A stretch of 64,000 nucleotides of DNA from Dehalococcoidia bacterium (GTDB lineage Bacteria; Chloroflexota; Dehalococcoidia; Plut-88900): NCBI GenBank assembly GCA_965207225.1, contig CBDBLV010000003.1:128001-192000 (forward strand). The letters run 5' to 3'. How positions within the stretch are numbered: the stretch's first letter is position 1; each line of letters starts with the position of its first letter. Shown one piece after another: positions 18,942 through 27,274 of this stretch. The position numbers and the translations under genes are program-made. A model generated the notes under the pieces. That model searched no databases and was not told the origin of the DNA. It worked only from the letters and a program-made list of their open reading frames with translations.

Positions 18942-19754
18942 CTATTCATCCCAAAAGGCGTGAAAGTGGTTCAGAGGGCCGTGCCCTTGGCCCACCGGAT
19001 ACGCCGCTTCTATTGACGCCGACACATATTCCTTGGCTTGTGACACTGCCTTTTCAACGGAACATCCCCGGGCCAGGTGCGCCGCTATGGCCGAGGCGAA
19101 AGTACATCCCGTCCCATGCGTATTCTTCGATTTTATACGCTCAGATACGAACTCGTGTACCGCCTCTTCCGAATACAGGATGTCCTTTACGGGCCCCTCC
19201 CGATGCCCGCCCTTGATCACCACCCACTTTGTCCCCATCCCGGTTATGACCCTGGCGGCGCGTACCGCATCTTCGTCCGTCTCTATCGTCATGTCTGTCA
19301 ATGCCTCAGCTTCCGGGACGTTGGGCGTCACCACCAGCGCCCTGGGCAGCAGCCTCGACCTGTACGCATCAATCGCCTCTTCCCGAAGAAGTCGGTCTCC
19401 GCTCTTGGCCACCATTACCGGGTCCACCACCACGTTGGGCATGCCCAAGGCTTGAATCCGGTCGGCCACGGCATCGATTATCCCGCTGTGTGCCAGCATC
19501 CCCGTCTTCACCGCATCCGTCCCGATGTCCGACATCACCGTGTCTATCTGCGCAGCAACCATGTCCGCCGGTATCTCGGCTATCCCGTCTACCGACAGGG
19601 TGTTTTGTGCCGTTACCGCTGTTATCACCGAGGTCCCGTACACACCCAGGGCCGCAAAGGTCTTCAGGTCAGCCTGTATCCCCGCCCCTCCCCCCGAGTC
19701 CGAACCCGCTATCGTCATGGCCCGGGCCACCCGCTTTACTGACGAATGGCTCAT
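18942..19754 (-). CDS. thiD: Hydroxymethylpyrimidine/phosphomethylpyrimidine kinase
   Basis: [49 protein letters not shown]. Confidence 0.96.
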
Positions 19755-20623
19755 GCTATGGCTAGCGGGTTCCACGGAGAACCGGTCCCGTGTGTGATCC
19801 GCAAGGGCGTCCCGACGAACAGGAACTCGTACACCCTGTCCCGGGCCAGATCTTGAAGGTCCAGGTTCTCCAGCAGGTAGACCCCCAGGTCCCGGAGCCC
19901 GTGCCGATGCAAGGGCATCTCCACGGGGGACTCAATATTCTCGAAGAGCTCGCATGTTGGGTGGTCCGTCCCTATGGCGACCACATCGTGCTCCTTGAGC
20001 CATGCCAGCACCGAGCCGTCGGGCCCGGGAAACGACCGTGACCAGCTCTCCCTGTCGGAGTGGAACAAGTTGTACCAGCCAGTCCGCACCAGTACCACGT
20101 CCCCGGGTTTCAACTCGATTCCCTGGGCGGCAGCGACGTTATCCAGGTCGGTGGCAGTGACGGACTCGGCAGCGGCAAGGTGCTCGACGCCCTTGTAAGC
20201 CGCTATATCAAGCATGACGCCTCGCCCGAATATGTGGCGCACGTTCTCAATGCCCACGCGCTCGACTCCACGGCTGCTTGCATATTTCTCCGACGAAAAC
20301 CCGTTGTATAGCTGGCCGTCGTGCCACGAATGCCCTATCCCGTCTATGTGCGTGCCGGAATGAGTCTCCATTGCGATCACGTCGTCGATAATGTCAAGCT
20401 CGGGGCCGTACAGGTGCTGCCAATGCGACACCCGCCACGTCTTATGGAATAGAGGGAACTGCGGCCCGTCTTTCTCCAACGGGACCGCCAGGCTGTAGAT
20501 ATCCCCCTTCTTCACTAGCTTTATCGCTTCCAGCACGGACGCTTGGTTCTGGATGAGGTTCAGGACACCTATCTGGTCGTCGGGGCCCCACCGACCCCAG
20601 TTGGACAGCTTTTCATTACTCAT
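19751..20623 (-). CDS. Cyclase family metal-dependent hydrolase (kynurenine formamidase-like)
   Basis: [35 protein letters not shown]; ATGA overlap with thiD. Confidence 0.92.
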
Positions 20624-20635
20624 GTTGTGCCCTTC

Positions 20636-21511
20636 CTATATGATCGCCAGTGGATTCCAGGGAGAGCCCGTGGCATGGGTCAGCCGCAGCGGCGCCCCTA
20701 TGAAAAGAAACTCGTAGACCTTGTCCCGGGCCAACTCCTCCAGGTCAAGGTTCTCTAGTATGTACACCCCCAGGTCCCGAAGGGCATACCGGTGAAGTGG
20801 AAGCCCCCCCTCCGGGCTCCCGACCTTGATCCTCAGCTCGCAAGTCGGGTGGTCCGTGCCGATGGCGCATACGTCGTGCTCCTTCAGCCACGGCAGCACC
20901 GAGGCATTTGGTCCCGGAAAAGATGTGGCCCACCTTGCCCTGTCCTTCTCGAACAGCGTGTACCACCCGGTGCGGATCATTACCACGTCACCCGGTTCAA
21001 GCGAGATGCCCTGCGCCCGTGCCGCCCCATCCAGGTCCTCGGGGGTTATGGCCTCGGCCTCCTGGAGGTGATCGACACCCCTATACGCCGCAACGTCCAG
21101 CATCACCCCCCGACCCACTATGTGCCGTACATTCTCGATACCCGTCCGCTCGACTCCACGGCTGCCGGCGTACTCATCCGAGGAGAAGCCGTTATAGAAC
21201 TGGCCGTCGGCCCACACGTGCCCAATAGCATCAATATGCGTGCCGGAATGGGTCTCCATGATGATGACGTCGTCGATGATGGACTGGTCGGGGTCCTTGC
21301 GTTCCGCCACATGCGAGACGCGCCAGGTCTTGTGGAAGGTCGGCATCTGCGGCCCGTCCTTCTCAAGCGGCACCGCCAGGCTGTAAATCTTCCCCTCCCT
21401 GACCATGCTGAACGCCTTGAGCACCTGCTCCCGACCCTGCAGCAAGTTGAGAACGCCTATCTGGTCGTCCGGGCCCCACCGGCCCCAGTTGGAAAGGTTC
21501 GTATCCGTCAT
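20636..21511 (-). CDS. Cyclase family metal-dependent hydrolase, tandem paralog
   Basis: Same motifs, highly similar to the adjacent cyclase. Confidence 0.92.
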   Translation of the reverse strand: MTDTNLSNWGRWGPDDQIGVLNLLQGREQVLKAFSMVREGKIYSLAVPLEKDGPQMPTFHKTWRVSHVAERKDPDQSIIDDVIIMETHSGTHIDAIGHVWADGQFYNGFSSDEYAGSRGVERTGIENVRHIVGRGVMLDVAAYRGVDHLQEAEAITPEDLDGAARAQGISLEPGDVVMIRTGWYTLFEKDRARWATSFPGPNASVLPWLKEHDVCAIGTDHPTCELRIKVGSPEGGLPLHRYALRDLGVYILENLDLEELARDKVYEFLFIGAPLRLTHATGSPWNPLAII

Positions 21512-21623
21512 GGCTTCCTCCGGTAACTGGCTGTGAGTCGACTAACGGCCTGATTATACGGGTTTTGGGGGGTTGGGTGGGTTATAATTGACCCACAGGC
21601 CCTATCCCAAAGGAGGACCGAGG

Positions 21624-22055
21624 TTGAAGAAGAAGACTTTCGAGCAGGCCCTGAAGGGCGCCGTCAAGATGTCCGAAAAGTACGTCGAGAAGGGCCCCTA
21701 CGAGTTCTACTCCGACCCCGAGATCGTCGACGAGGTCCAGAAGGGTCTCGCCAAGAACGAGGTCAAGTGGGGATACCGATACTGTCCCTGAATGATCGTA
21801 GAAGGCGACCCGGAGCGGGATCGCATGAAGATCTGCCCCTGCGAGAGGCACCACGAGGACATAGCTCGGGATGGCTTCTGTATATGAATGTTCTTCGTAA
21901 GCGAAGAGTTTCTTCGCAAGATGGAGCAGGGCGAGGAGCCCATGAGCACCCTGGCCGGAGAGGGCGGTGCCCCCGGTGAGGAGCTGTTCCCCGACGACAA
22001 GTACACCGGCGCCCCCAAGAAGTCGGCCCGGGGCCCGGCCAGCCGTAAGAAATAG
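21624..22055 (+). CDS. Ferredoxin:thioredoxin reductase catalytic subunit-like selenoprotein with two Sec (U56, U88), 143 aa
   Basis: AGGAGG RBS plus TTG start; GLAKNEVKWGYRYCP-TGA...KICPC...DGFCI-TGA-MFFV; frame continues to TAG 22053-22055; SECIS-like hairpins after both TGAs. Confidence 0.88.
21805..21824 (+). promoter_or_regulatory. Putative bacterial SECIS element 1
   Basis: GCGA-CCCG-GAG-CGGG-A-TCGC hairpin starting 13 nt after TGA 21789-21791. Confidence 0.7.
21901..21917 (+). promoter_or_regulatory. Putative bacterial SECIS element 2
   Basis: GCGAAGA-GTT-TCTTCGC hairpin starting 13 nt after TGA 21885-21887. Confidence 0.72.
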
Positions 22056-22200
22056 CCCAACGACCTTTTTTGCATGTGGAATAATGGGAAACTGCTGAGC
22101 AGTTTCCCATTATCATGTACGGAGGAAACGCAACCTCAGACCCCTGCTTGCGTTATCTATTGCAAGGCCCGCATTTCACGATTACGACCTCAAGACATAG

Positions 22201-25240: not shown

Positions 25241-27274
25241 CTATCGCGTCCTCGGGTTCAGCACGTCATTCAGTCCGTCCCCCAGCAGGTTCCAGGCGTA
25301 GATGAGTATGGCTATTGTCGCGGCCGGAACTAGGAGCAGGTGTGGATCATCCCGCAATATCGACAGGTTGGATATTCCGAAGTTCTCCAGGATCATCCGC
25401 CCGAGACTCGGGTTAGGGGGTTGTATCCCAATCCCGAACCAGCTCAGCACAACCTCAGACCCCGCCACCGCCCCCATCCCCACTGACACCGAGACAATAA
25501 CCGGGCTCAGGGCATTCGGAAGCAGGTGCCGGAATATGATGCGCATGTTGGAGGCGCCCATCGCCCTTGCCGCCTCCACATACTGGCTCTCTTTCAGCCA
25601 CAGGAGTTGGCCCCTGACCAGCCGGGCCATCCCCACCCAGCTGAACAGCGTCAGTGATGCAAACACCACGAAATAGTCCACCCCGCCCGACCGCACGATC
25701 CCGTCTATCCCGGACCAGTCCTCGAAGGCCCTGACCCACTCCACGACCCTCGGCTTCACCGTCGCCGCTATCAGGATGATCAGCAATATGCCGGGGAAGG
25801 CCAGGAATATATCGCCGGTGCGCATTATCACCGTGTCCACCCGCCTCCCGAAGTAACCCGCCGCCGCCCCCATGAATACCCCTATCAGCAGCGACCCCGT
25901 GAGCACCGAAGCCAGGGTGATGATTACGGTAGTCCGAATTCCGTAAATCACCCGGCTCAGCAGGTCCCGCCCGATCCTGTCCGTACCCAGCGGGTGCTCA
26001 AGACTCGGGGGCCACTTGAAGATAGACGGGCCCTCGATGAGGTCCGTGGAGGCCAGCTCGCTCCAGGTGTCCCCGCCGTTGGTGGTTATAAACAACCCGC
26101 CGTCCACGGTCCCGGCAAATAGGGTGCCGTCATTGCCGAAGTCAGGGGAAATTGCCAGGCCCTCGGCCTTCGTTATGCTTAGACCAGCAGTCGCCGTCAC
26201 CCAACTGGCGCCCTCATCCACCGACCGAAAGATCCCCAGGCTGCCCGTGTTCGCGAATATGGTCCGGTCCGACTCGTAGCCCGGGGAAGTCAGCAGGGCG
26301 AGCACCTGCTGGCTGTTCAGCCTTGCATCCATCAATTCCCATGTCGACCCCCTGTCCCGAGACCTCAGCAACCCCTCGGACGAGGTAACGTACAGGGTGC
26401 CGTCCCGCCCGAACCCCGGCGATATCGCCATGGTCGCCTCACGGGACACGCCGGCACTGGCCTCGTAGACCGGCGCCCAGGATATGCCTGCATCCGTAGA
26501 GCGATACACCTCTTCCACCGTCCGAAATGACCCGGTCTTCCTCTCGGTGACCGTTGCGAAGACCGTGTTGTCGGAGGCAAAGTCGGGGGAGAACACGACG
26601 TGAGAGGCGGCTGGGGCCTCGCTCTGAAATCCGCTGTTGACGTTGGCCCAGCTAGAACCCCGGTCACCGCTCCGGTACAGACCCCCAGACAGCGCCGCAA
26701 TGGCGATACCATCTGAGCCAAAGGTGGGGGACGCGGCCAGGTGCTTTACGCCGCGATTTGCAGGGAGGCCTTCGCTGGCCTCTTCCCATGTCGAGGCCCC
26801 GTCCCGGGACACGAATATCCCCTGCGGGGTCCCCGCAAAGACCACGTTATTGTCCCCCTCAATCGAGACCGGTGCCAGCACGTCAACGTTCACCGCCCCC
26901 AGCCCCGTGTTCACCTGCTCCCAGGACCCGCCCGCATTCTCCGACCTGAACACCCCGATGGGGGTGTAGTTGTACAGGGTTGAGTCTTCAGTCCAGCGCG
27001 GAGAGATGACTAGCCCCTGGAAACCGGGTAAATCCTCCAGGTTGGTCGACGGTGTCTCCCTATAGTCCCGGGGAGCGGTCCAGGGGGCCAGGGCGCCGCC
27101 CACATAGAGAATTACTATCAGGATCAGCGCCCCGAAAGCCACCTTCTTGCGCCGGAGTCGCGCCCAGGCCTGCGCCCAGGGTCCGCCCCGCATCTGCGCA
27201 TCGTCGGAAGAGTCCCGTCGGCCCCTCCGGAAGAGACCCCACACCCGACCCAGCACCTGTAGAAGGCTAGTCAT
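25241..27274 (-). CDS. Opp/Dpp ABC permease (OppC-like) with inserted BNR/Asp-box beta-propeller
   Basis: OppC N-terminus, about seven SxDxGxxW repeats, then HPLGTDRIGRDLLSR, YVEAARAMGA, HLLPN, GDGLNDVLNP. Confidence 0.9.
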   Translation of the reverse strand: MTSLLQVLGRVWGLFRRGRRDSSDDAQMRGGPWAQAWARLRRKKVAFGALILIVILYVGGALAPWTAPRDYRETPSTNLEDLPGFQGLVISPRWTEDSTLYNYTPIGVFRSENAGGSWEQVNTGLGAVNVDVLAPVSIEGDNNVVFAGTPQGIFVSRDGASTWEEASEGLPANRGVKHLAASPTFGSDGIAIAALSGGLYRSGDRGSSWANVNSGFQSEAPAASHVVFSPDFASDNTVFATVTERKTGSFRTVEEVYRSTDAGISWAPVYEASAGVSREATMAISPGFGRDGTLYVTSSEGLLRSRDRGSTWELMDARLNSQQVLALLTSPGYESDRTIFANTGSLGIFRSVDEGASWVTATAGLSITKAEGLAISPDFGNDGTLFAGTVDGGLFITTNGGDTWSELASTDLIEGPSIFKWPPSLEHPLGTDRIGRDLLSRVIYGIRTTVIITLASVLTGSLLIGVFMGAAAGYFGRRVDTVIMRTGDIFLAFPGILLIILIAATVKPRVVEWVRAFEDWSGIDGIVRSGGVDYFVVFASLTLFSWVGMARLVRGQLLWLKESQYVEAARAMGASNMRIIFRHLLPNALSPVIVSVSVGMGAVAGSEVVLSWFGIGIQPPNPSLGRMILENFGISNLSILRDDPHLLLVPAATIAILIYAWNLLGDGLNDVLNPRTR

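What the first reader, a model, noticed from the sequence alone, without database searches (positions are those of the whole stretch)
21624..22055. Hidden ferredoxin:thioredoxin reductase homolog with selenocysteine at both active-site positions (predicted diselenide centre)
Seen: the ORF track stops at TGA 21789, but reading through TGA 21789-21791 and TGA 21885-21887 gives a 143-aa protein (RBS AGGAGG, TTG start, TAG stop 22053-22055) with C54-P-U56 ... C71-P-C73 ... C86-I-U88-MFFV. Established: FTR catalytic subunits use CPC/CPC/CHC motifs; four Cys ligate the [4Fe-4S] cluster, and the second Cys of the first CPC plus the last Cys of CHC form the redox-active disulfide. Both TGAs fall exactly on those two redox residues, all four cluster ligands stay Cys, and the CHC His is replaced by Ile. 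Inference: a selenoenzyme with an Se-Se centre next to an Fe-S cluster, where the low pKa of Sec may make the His dispensable. Sec-containing FTR-like proteins are known from selenoproteome surveys; I cannot check whether a double-Sec form has been described.
Basis: partly seen in the sequence, partly recalled or inferred. Interest (0 to 1): 0.92.

Follow-up and report, generated by a model that had tools for sequence, protein, structure and literature searches.

The report
Known double-selenocysteine FtrB-family reductase gene
This is a real gene for a small iron-sulfur disulfide reductase that carries the rare amino acid selenocysteine at both of its reactive positions, but the family has been described since 2008 and already has a curated database model, so this copy is an ordinary member.

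Summary
Window 21624-22055 (+) reads through TGA 21789 and TGA 21885 into a 143-aa protein with C54-P-U56, C71-P-C73 and C86-I-U88. It matches Pfam PF02943. It also passes NCBIfam NF041072, "FtrB family double-selenoprotein", at 213.7 bits against a cut-off of 160.

The genome holds tRNA-Sec, selA, selB and selD. TGA is also a common stop there. All 80 related loci examined, 55-97% identical and nearly all labelled Dehalococcoidia or Chloroflexota, keep both TGAs and the Ile between C86 and U88. A hairpin starts 13 nt after each TGA, and synonymous codons are constrained inside both stems.

A double-Sec FTR homolog was reported in 2008 (PMC2398784). A 2026 review lists it as "predicted with high confidence", with 2 Sec. 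The finding is therefore correct but already known.

Sec insertion and the Se-Se centre remain untested.

The parts
21611..21616 (+). Shine-Dalgarno-like AGGAGG, 7 nt before the TTG start
   Evidence: Read directly.
21624..22055 (+). Coding sequence of the FtrB-family double-selenoprotein. It has 143 codons plus a TAG stop and two in-frame TGA codons.
   Evidence: Translation. PF02943 at 76.6 bits. NF041072 at 213.7 bits against a cut-off of 160. Six-frame match of 203.4 bits with 2 TGA inside.
21783..21785 (+). Cys54 codon, the first Cys of C-P-U. Inferred [4Fe-4S] ligand.
   Evidence: Aligns with the first Cys of the CPC motif of 4tpu, 7pwe and 1dj7. Invariant in alignments A2 and A4. The ligand role is recalled from FTR structures.
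21789..21791 (+). TGA 1, read as Sec56. It is equivalent to the exposed redox-active Cys of FTR.
   Evidence: TGA at this codon in 80 of 80 related loci. Aligns with Cys in solved chains.
21805..21824 (+). Hairpin 1, a candidate SECIS for TGA 1. The stem starts 13 nt after the TGA.
   Evidence: Fold: -16.7 kcal/mol for the 60-nt stretch, z -0.5, so weak on its own. The seven stem pairs are formed in 93.9% of cells across 80 distinct sequences. Codon choice in the stem is constrained. The same hairpin forms in L067, L090 and L115.
21834..21842 (+). C71-P-C73. Inferred [4Fe-4S] ligands.
   Evidence: Invariant. Aligns with the second CPC of solved FTR/FDR chains.
21879..21884 (+). Cys86 (inferred cluster ligand) and Ile87, which sits where classical FTR has His.
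   Evidence: C-I-U in 80 of 80 loci. Ile was never seen at this place in the 135 relatives parsed.
21885..21887 (+). TGA 2, read as Sec88. It is equivalent to the cluster-interacting redox-active Cys of FTR.
   Evidence: TGA in 80 of 80 loci. Aligns with Cys in solved chains.
21901..21917 (+). Hairpin 2, a candidate SECIS for TGA 2. It has a 7-bp stem and a GUU loop, and the stem starts 13 nt after the TGA.
   Evidence: Fold: -22.8 kcal/mol, z -3.33, 0 of 200 shuffles as good. 94.3% of cells are paired. G and U of the loop are invariant. Four relatives have a hairpin of different sequence at the same place. Codon choice is constrained.
21948..22052 (+). C-terminal tail, residues 109-143. It is poorly conserved, basic at the end and predicted disordered.
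   Evidence: pLDDT below 50 for residues 109-143. Low conservation.
22071..22119 (+). Long hairpin just after the stop codon. It may be a terminator, but no T run follows it.
   Evidence: Fold: -26.6 kcal/mol, z -5.83. The terminator scan did not call it.

Best explanation
The gene encodes a stand-alone member of the FtrB family of double-selenoproteins (NCBIfam NF041072). This family is a branch of the ferredoxin:thioredoxin reductase catalytic-subunit superfamily. Its closest solved relatives are the ferredoxin-dependent disulfide reductases (FDR).

Each of the two UGA codons is decoded as selenocysteine by SelB and tRNA-Sec, directed by its own hairpin that starts 13 nt downstream. I put this part at about 0.93.

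By homology, Cys54, Cys71, Cys73 and Cys86 hold a [4Fe-4S] cluster, and Sec56 and Sec88 lie beside it as the redox-active pair. The most likely chemistry follows FTR:
- The pair closes to a diselenide.
- One electron from a low-potential donor such as ferredoxin opens it through the cluster, with Sec88 bonding to a cluster iron.
- Sec56 attacks the disulfide of a substrate protein.
- A second electron resolves the mixed bond.

I put this mechanistic part at about 0.55. It is inferred, not shown. The donor and the substrate are unknown.
For: Identity:
- PF02943 at 1.8e-21.
- NF041072 equivalog at 4.3e-64, 213.7 bits against a cut-off of 160.
- It is the only PF02943 gene found in the genome.
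- The AlphaFold model has pLDDT of about 88-96 for residues 1-100. Its only clear fold matches are 7pwe, 4tpu and FTR chains.

Sec decoding:
- tRNA-Sec with anticodon tca is present.
- selA scores 556 bits, selB 359 bits, and selD 387 bits with its own in-frame TGA.
- TGA ends 906 of 2592 long frames in the genome, so it is not reassigned globally.

Conservation:
- 80 of 80 loci kept from 170 relatives have TGA at both sites, at 55-97% identity and with conservation continuing past both TGAs.
- 9 of 17 database homologs are full length with W at both sites, which means TGA read under another code. Six more stop at site 1, and two have Cys at site 1 and stop at site 2.

SECIS:
- Both hairpins start at the same offset from their TGA.
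- 94.1% of stem cells are paired, against 22.9-55.5% when the partner is slid.
- Asp is GAT in 62/80 and 69/80 sequences inside stem 1, but GAC in 39/44, 71/80 and 53/80 outside the stems.
- Leu is CTT in 76/78 inside stem 2. Arg is CGC in 77/80 and 65/80 inside the stems, against about 2.2 bits of codon entropy outside.
- Four relatives have a hairpin of different sequence at the same place.

Independent data: contigs from three other studies cover both codons with no change listed. A contig of a relative from an RNA library spans both TGAs.

Literature: PMC2398784 (passages), PMC13188914 (Table 1) and PMC9312934 (table row).
Against: - There is no direct evidence of selenium in the protein. 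The 2026 review files the family under "predicted", not "experimentally verified".
- No base pair shows a change on both sides in register. The covariation score is reached by 119 of 500 shuffles, so RNA support rests on conservation, codon bias and four shifted variants.
- Hairpin 1 of the window alone is unremarkable: z -0.5, with 58 of 200 shuffles folding as well. One relative's lowest-energy fold prefers a competing hairpin (L067).
- No Rfam family matched.
- The diselenide, the Fe-Se intermediate and the cluster itself are inferred from homology only.
- No ferredoxin, thioredoxin, glutaredoxin or rubredoxin gene lies nearby. No FTR variable chain was found in the genome, which is 92.3% complete. 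The classical FTR partnership therefore cannot be assumed.
Confidence: 0.85

Rival explanations
1. Both Sec are inserted, but the pair does not cycle as a diselenide that reduces a thioredoxin-like protein. The selenols would do something else, for example bind a metal or the cluster permanently, reduce small molecules such as peroxides or sulfur and selenium compounds, or serve a dedicated partner such as the small Cys-rich protein encoded upstream in many relatives.
For: - No Trx, Grx or Fdx gene is linked to the locus.
- No FTR variable chain was found.
- The middle residue is an invariant Ile, seen in none of the 135 relatives parsed, which hints at a changed active-site environment.
- A conserved small ORF with a C-x-C ... 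C-x-x-H pattern lies directly upstream in 39 of 80 loci.
Against: - The six Cys/Sec positions map one to one onto the FTR/FDR active site.
- The fold matches only FTR/FDR chains.
- The upstream ORF is absent from the window's locus, and its homolog in this genome is weak and lies elsewhere.
Confidence: 0.1
2. The TGAs are read, but not as Sec. They would be read as Trp, Cys or Gly, either by near-cognate read-through or under a changed genetic code.
For: Gene callers gave W at both sites in 9 database homologs. There are no direct selenium data.
Against: - TGA ends 906 of 2592 long frames in this genome.
- The full Sec machinery is present.
- Both sites align with catalytic Cys.
- A conserved hairpin follows each TGA.
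- The W calls come from short contigs (longest 570-1735 bases). That such contigs are easily read under code 4 is my assumption; no call shows which code was used.
Confidence: 0.03
3. It is a broken gene or an assembly error. Only the 55-aa N-terminal piece, or nothing, is made.
For: Under table 11 the frame is cut into pieces.
Against: - 80 of 80 relatives, down to 55% identity, have the same two TGAs and no other disruption, and the most conserved stretches lie after the first TGA.
- Contigs of three other studies agree.
- The sequence passes a curated equivalog model built for this layout.
Confidence: 0.01

Closest known systems
NCBIfam NF041072, FtrB_double_U (FtrB family double-selenoprotein)
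   Same: Full-length match above the curated cut-off (213.7 against 160 bits, residues 2-123 on model positions 1-121), with two in-frame TGAs inside the match.
   Different: Nothing found. The window's copy has a 20-residue basic, disordered tail beyond the model. In a sample of 401 genomes of its phylum it was the only one over the cut-off.
FTR catalytic-subunit selenoprotein from the Global Ocean Sampling metagenome (Zhang and Gladyshev 2008, PMC2398784)
   Same: [quoted passage not shown]
   Different: I could not compare sequences, because the paper's datasets are supplements and were closed. That paper had 2 selenoprotein sequences. Here 80 genome loci from Chloroflexota were examined.
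Ferredoxin-dependent disulfide reductases: 4TPU (Methanosarcina acetivorans) and 7PWE (glutaredoxin/FDR fusion, Desulfotalea psychrophila)
   Same: These are the best sequence matches (6.9e-13 and 1.2e-12) and the best fold matches (rmsd 1.8-2.4 A over 88-98 columns). Neither has His in the C-x-C motif, and neither uses an FTR variable chain (the latter is recalled).
   Different: Both are all-Cys enzymes with C-Y-C, and both are fused to a further domain: 4TPU is deposited as "Rubredoxin" and 7PWE as a glutaredoxin fusion. The window's protein stands alone, has Sec at both redox positions and has C-I-U.
Classical ferredoxin:thioredoxin reductase catalytic chain of cyanobacteria and chloroplasts (1DJ7, 2PVD, 7BZK)
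   Same: Same fold and the same CPC ... CPC ... C-x-C spacing of six Cys/Sec positions.
   Different: The match is weaker (3e-4). His is replaced by Ile. No variable chain (PF02941) was found in the genome. The host is a non-photosynthetic Dehalococcoidia lineage (record titles).
Selenoprotein L, a family with a diselenide in a UxxU motif (Shchedrina et al. 2007; seen only as a title in the reference list)
   Same: Two Sec are proposed to form a diselenide redox centre.
   Different: Selenoprotein L is a thioredoxin-fold protein with the two Sec three residues apart and no Fe-S cluster. Here the Sec are 32 residues apart and would be brought together by the fold next to a cluster.

Membership tests
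NCBIfam NF041072 FtrB family double-selenoprotein | Score above the curated equivalog cut-off over the whole model | tested here: met
   213.7 bits against 160, model positions 1-121 of 121. 203.4 bits in the six-frame genome search.
NCBIfam NF041072 FtrB family double-selenoprotein | Two in-frame UGA codons at the two redox-active positions | tested here: met
   U56 and U88. Both align with Cys of solved FTR/FDR chains. 80 of 80 relatives share them.
NCBIfam NF041072 FtrB family double-selenoprotein | The host can make and insert Sec (selA, selB, selC, selD) | tested here: met
   tRNA-Sec at 66.4 bits, also called by ARAGORN. selA at 556 bits, selB at 359 bits, selD at 387 bits.
NCBIfam NF041072 FtrB family double-selenoprotein | A bacterial SECIS hairpin shortly after each UGA | tested here: met
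   Both hairpins start 13 nt after their UGA and have G in the apical loop. 94.1% of stem cells are paired across 80 sequences. Synonymous codons are constrained in the stems. The weak points are that there is no in-register compensatory pair and that hairpin 1 has z -0.5 in the window alone.
NCBIfam NF041072 FtrB family double-selenoprotein | Selenium actually present at both residues | not testable with these tools
   Needs 75Se labelling or mass spectrometry. The family is listed as predicted only.
FTR catalytic subunit superfamily (Pfam PF02943) | Pfam model above the gathering score, and the FTR fold | tested here: met
   76.6 bits against 22. Foldseek probability 1.00 to 7pwe, 4tpu, 1dj7 and others.
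FTR catalytic subunit superfamily (Pfam PF02943) | Four Cys ligands for a [4Fe-4S] cluster, plus a redox-active pair | tested here: met
   C54, C71, C73 and C86 are kept and invariant. The pair is U56/U88. Which positions are ligands is recalled from the FTR structures. The cluster itself is not testable here.
Classical heterodimeric FTR (cyanobacteria, chloroplasts) | C-H-C motif with the catalytic His | tested here: not met
   C-I-U in the window and in 80 of 80 relatives.
Classical heterodimeric FTR (cyanobacteria, chloroplasts) | Variable chain (PF02941) encoded in the genome | tested here: not met
   No match in G000, which is 92.3% complete. The control genome Synechococcus gave a match.
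Ferredoxin-dependent disulfide reductase (FDR; 4TPU and 7PWE type) | Closest sequence and fold, no His, no variable chain | tested here: met
Ferredoxin-dependent disulfide reductase (FDR; 4TPU and 7PWE type) | Fused rubredoxin or glutaredoxin domain | tested here: not met
   The 143-aa protein has a single PF02943 domain and a disordered tail. No such motif lies within 3 kb.
Ferredoxin-dependent disulfide reductase (FDR; 4TPU and 7PWE type) | Ferredoxin-dependent reduction of a disulfide substrate | not testable with these tools
   Needs an enzyme assay.

The most novel reading that the evidence does not exclude
The two Sec form a true diselenide that the adjacent [4Fe-4S] cluster opens one electron at a time through an Fe-Se bonded intermediate. 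The invariant Ile, never seen at that place in the Cys relatives parsed, would be a specific adaptation to this selenium chemistry. In about half of the clade the small Cys-rich protein encoded directly upstream would be the enzyme's dedicated substrate or partner. That would make this a natural iron-sulfur/diselenide redox centre with its own client, something no experiment has yet described in the papers I could search.
Probability: 0.25. Interest if true: 0.55.

Novelty: already known. Interest (0 to 1): 0.25.

Why it matters
The family is a rare natural case of two selenocysteines placed to form a diselenide beside an iron-sulfur cluster. It is also a rare case of two bacterial SECIS elements only 96 nt apart inside one short gene. 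Every source I saw treats it as predicted, so biochemistry on it would be new. As a genome-scan finding, however, it adds only one more member.

- The clade is widespread in Dehalococcoidia/Chloroflexota assemblies.
- Both TGAs and the Ile are invariant in the 80 loci examined.
- Both hairpins sit at the same offset and constrain codon choice.
- Single-Sec forms exist at either site.
- His is not general in the Cys relatives.

Practically, standard gene callers split or truncate this gene, or mis-read it with Trp.

Tried and rejected
- **Compensatory base pairs in register.** None of the 14 pairs changes on both sides, and the covariation score is reached by 119 of 500 shuffles. RNAalifold also found none. 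I therefore rest the SECIS case on conservation, codon bias and four shifted variants.
- **Rfam.** No relevant family matched at E up to 10.
- **Promoter and terminator scan.** It found no sites. A TATAAT at 21583-21588 and the hairpin at 22071-22119 are my own reading only.
- **Linked redox partner.** The window's neighbours are two cyclase-family genes, a peptidase M28 and others. Clustering ORFs from 81 loci gave no Trx, Grx, Fdx or rubredoxin. The sporadic motif hits lie in frames read through TGA and look spurious.
- **FTR variable chain.** Not found in the genome.
- **Cys/Cys member of the same clade.** None seen. The best full-length Cys/Cys proteins are 49-50% identical. That library is clustered at 50% identity, so closer ones could be hidden.
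- **Papers on 4TPU and 7PWE.** Not found in the library, so what I say about their biochemistry is recalled or taken from PDB titles.
- **Expression.** RNA-library runs held only small shares of the stretch. One RNA-library contig of a relative spans both TGAs, but DNA can be present in such libraries, so I do not claim transcription. The depth figures sum many relatives and were not used.
- **Supplements.** The supplementary datasets of PMC2398784, which hold the GOS sequences, could not be seen. I therefore cannot say whether the 2008 read belongs to this same clade.

Full report
**1. The observation**

AGGAGG lies at 21611-21616 and TTG at 21624. In-frame TGA codons lie at 21789-21791 and 21885-21887, and TAG at 22053-22055. 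With TGA read as U, the frame gives 143 residues with C54-P-U56, C71-P-C73 and C86-I-U88-MFFV. Under table 11 the frame appears only as fragments, 21588..21791 and 21888..22055.

**2. What the protein is**

Pfam places it in PF02943, the FTR catalytic beta chain (1.8e-21, 76.6 bits). NCBIfam places it in NF041072, "FtrB_double_U, FtrB family double-selenoprotein". This is an equivalog model, matched at 4.3e-64 and 213.7 bits against a curated cut-off of 160, over model positions 1-121 of 121. The same model run over the whole genome finds this one place, with "2 TGA" inside the match. PF02943 finds no second copy.

Among solved structures the nearest by sequence are:
- 4tpu, at 6.9e-13;
- 7pwe, at 1.2e-12;
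- the classical FTR chains such as 1dj7, at 3e-4.

In those alignments U56 and U88 fall on Cys, and the other four Cys are matched.

An AlphaFold model was built on 54 sequences. Its pLDDT is about 88-96 for residues 1-100, 66 for residues 101-110 and below 50 for residues 109-143. Its only clear fold matches are:
- the glutaredoxin/ferredoxin disulfide reductase fusion of Desulfotalea (7pwe, E 3e-6, rmsd 2.4 A over 98 columns);
- the ferredoxin-dependent disulfide reductase of Methanosarcina acetivorans (4tpu, rmsd 1.8 A);
- FTR catalytic chains.

No FTR variable chain (PF02941) is found in the genome, which is 92.3% complete. The protein is therefore closer to the stand-alone FDR type than to the classical heterodimeric FTR.

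**3. Whether the TGAs are Sec codons**

The genome has one tRNA-Sec with anticodon tca (Rfam 66.4 bits; ARAGORN). It also has selA (556 bits), selB (359 bits summed) and selD (387 bits, itself with one in-frame TGA).

TGA is not reassigned. It ends 906 of 2592 stop-to-stop frames of 300 aa or more in the genome, and 18 of 64 frames of 250 aa or more in the window.

In the 90%-clustered protein collection, 18 proteins matched and I aligned 17 of them:
- 9 are full length with W at both sites, which means the callers read TGA under another code;
- 6 end at Y-C-P, immediately before site 1;
- 2 (P0011 and P0012) have Cys at site 1 and end at F-C-I, immediately before site 2.

A scan of one genome per species found 170 relatives, and the best 80 were kept. 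They are 55-97% identical. 79 of the 80 record titles name Dehalococcoidia, Dehalococcoidales, Chloroflexia, Chloroflexi or Chloroflexota. All 80 have TGA at both sites and C-I-U (60 by a strict pattern, the other 20 by a looser one). The patterns used to find these loci did not include the Sec codons.

In a sample of 401 genomes of the window's phylum, only the window's own genome passes the NF041072 cut-off. 32 others have weaker, mostly all-Cys relatives.

Contigs from three other studies cover the two codons: X6 covers 21535-21967, X10 covers 21500-21892, and X5 covers 21594-21865 and later pieces. No other letter is listed at either TGA, although 18 rows of that table were not shown. A broken gene and an assembly error are therefore excluded for practical purposes.

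**4. The SECIS hairpins**

Each TGA is followed, after 13 nt, by a hairpin that begins G-C-G-A.
- Hairpin 1 spans 21805-21824. The 60-nt fold around it is -16.7 kcal/mol, z -0.5.
- Hairpin 2 spans 21901-21917. It has a 7-bp stem and a GUU loop; the fold is -22.8 kcal/mol, z -3.33, and 0 of 200 shuffles fold as well.

I aligned 81 sequences, 80 of them distinct. Across them the 14 stem pairs are formed in 94.1% of cells, against 22.9-55.5% when the 3' partner is slid by 1-3 columns.

There is no compensatory change in register. No pair changes on both sides, and 119 of 500 shuffles reach the covariation score. However, four sequences carry a hairpin of different sequence at the same place, shifted by one base and with loop AGUU (L090, L125, L115 and L130). 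In two of them the change costs amino-acid replacements (SSEFARK in place of SEEFLRK).

Codon choice gives the clearer signal:

| Residue | Inside the stems | Outside the stems |
|---|---|---|
| Asp | GAT in 62/80 and 69/80 (stem 1) | GAC in 39/44, 71/80 and 53/80 |
| Leu | CTT in 76/78 (stem 2) | mostly CTC or CTG |
| Arg | CGC in 77/80 and 65/80 | about 2.2 bits of codon entropy |
| Gly | GGC in 75/79 | 1.2-1.7 bits |
| Glu, Phe | shifted to GAA and TTT (stem 2) | GAG and TTC |

This is the pattern expected if the RNA structure is under selection. No Rfam family matched.

**5. Mechanism**

Shown here:
- the fold and family;
- the six conserved Cys/Sec positions;
- the Sec machinery and the hairpins.

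Inferred from the FTR literature (recalled: Dai et al. 2000 and 2007; the latter appears as a citation):
- C54, C71, C73 and C86 bind a [4Fe-4S] cluster.
- U56 corresponds to the exposed nucleophile that attacks the substrate disulfide.
- U88 corresponds to the residue that bonds to a cluster iron in the one-electron intermediate and later resolves the mixed bond.
- In the resting oxidised state the pair would be a diselenide.

The donor and acceptor are unknown. No ferredoxin, thioredoxin, glutaredoxin or rubredoxin gene lies within 3 kb in the window or in the 80 relatives. The gene appears to stand alone between a divergent cyclase-family gene and a peptidase gene.

**6.

The Ile is real and invariant in the clade (80 of 80). 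But His is not the rule in the Cys relatives. I parsed 135 of the best 150 representatives, and 128 of them are Cys/Cys. Their middle residue is H in 43, Y in 26, E in 14, F in 14, L in 8 and others in the rest, and never I. The two closest solved enzymes have C-Y-C, and Chloroflexota Cys forms have C-Y/F-C.

Loss of His therefore does not need Sec to explain it. The invariant Ile may still be a clade-specific adaptation.

Single-Sec forms exist at either site:
- L026 has C-P-U with C-R-C.
- L049 has C-Y-U and L052 has C-H-U.
- P0011 and P0012 have Cys at site 1 and a stop at site 2.

**7. What is already known**

- Zhang and Gladyshev 2008 (PMC2398784; passages read) reported FTR catalytic-subunit homologs as a new selenoprotein family in the Global Ocean Sampling data. 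[quoted passage not shown]
- A 2022 review lists the family (PMC9312934; one table row seen).
- A 2026 review lists [quoted passage not shown] under "Predicted with high confidence", not under "Experimentally verified" (PMC13188914; Table 1 read, reference checked).

Searches for FtrB with selenoprotein, for NF041072, and for diselenide with selenoprotein and FTR returned nothing experimental. The word "diselenide" occurs in the 2008 paper only in its reference list. These searches cover open-access papers and bioRxiv only.

**8. Verdict**

The finding is real and correctly read, but it is a member of a family that is already described and curated. The increments here are:
- the taxonomic home of the clade;
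- the invariance of both TGAs and of the Ile;
- the equal offset and codon constraint of two SECIS hairpins 96 nt apart;
- the existence of single-Sec forms;
- a small conserved Cys-rich ORF upstream in 39 of 80 relatives.

Novelty: already known. Interest: 0.25. The open question is biochemical: whether a diselenide next to an Fe-S cluster really forms, and what it reduces.

Noticed in passing
L074:2563-2907 (+), L069:2556-2909 (+) and 37 other related loci; weak homolog at G000:C4:468995-469288 (L135): A small conserved ORF with a core of about 95 aa and a C-x-C ... C-x-x-H pattern lies directly upstream, on the same strand, of the double-Sec gene in 39 of 80 related loci. It has no Pfam or NCBIfam match. 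It is not present at the window's locus. The only homolog in the window's genome is weak (24% identity, E 1.4e-6) and lies elsewhere. It could be a partner or substrate.
   Followed up: partly
L026, L049 and L052 (loci from the phylum sample); P0011 and P0012: Single-Sec forms of FTR-like proteins exist at either site. L026 has C-P-U with C-R-C. L049 has C-Y-U and L052 has C-H-U. P0011 and P0012, 63-65% identical to the window's protein, have Cys at site 1 and stop at site 2.
   Followed up: partly
window 21853-21862 with 21888-21898 (alignment A3, columns 65-74 with 100-110): RNAalifold proposes a conserved 10-bp helix that encloses TGA 2 in its loop. All variation in it is one-sided, at synonymous sites. 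It may be chance, given the conserved HEDI and MFFV codons.
   Followed up: no
window 22071-22119: A long near-perfect hairpin lies just after the stop codon (-26.6 kcal/mol, z -5.83). No T run follows it, and the terminator scan did not call it.
   Followed up: partly
G000:C5:649975-650898 (L021): The genome's selD has one in-frame TGA, so it is itself a likely selenoprotein.
   Followed up: no
G000:C2:390271-390356 (L003): A second Rfam tRNA-Sec match lies just over the gathering score (47.1 bits against 47). ARAGORN does not call it tRNA-Sec and lists only one. It is probably another tRNA with a long variable arm.
   Followed up: no
window 19751-20623 (-) and 20636-21511 (-): Two adjacent genes of the putative cyclase family PF04199, 290 and 291 aa with near-identical domain coordinates, look like a tandem duplication. 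They run divergently from the selenoprotein gene.
   Followed up: no
window 25241-27274 (-): A 677-aa ORF combines an OppC-type N-terminal transmembrane segment and a C-terminal ABC permease domain (PF00528) with BNR/sortilin-Vps10 repeat matches in between. This is an unusual architecture for a transport permease.
   Followed up: no
window 21500-22200, coded runs: The stretch or close relatives of it is held by runs of 13 studies, among them sponge, coral and marine metagenomes. Contigs of three of these were laid and agree with the window.
   Followed up: partly
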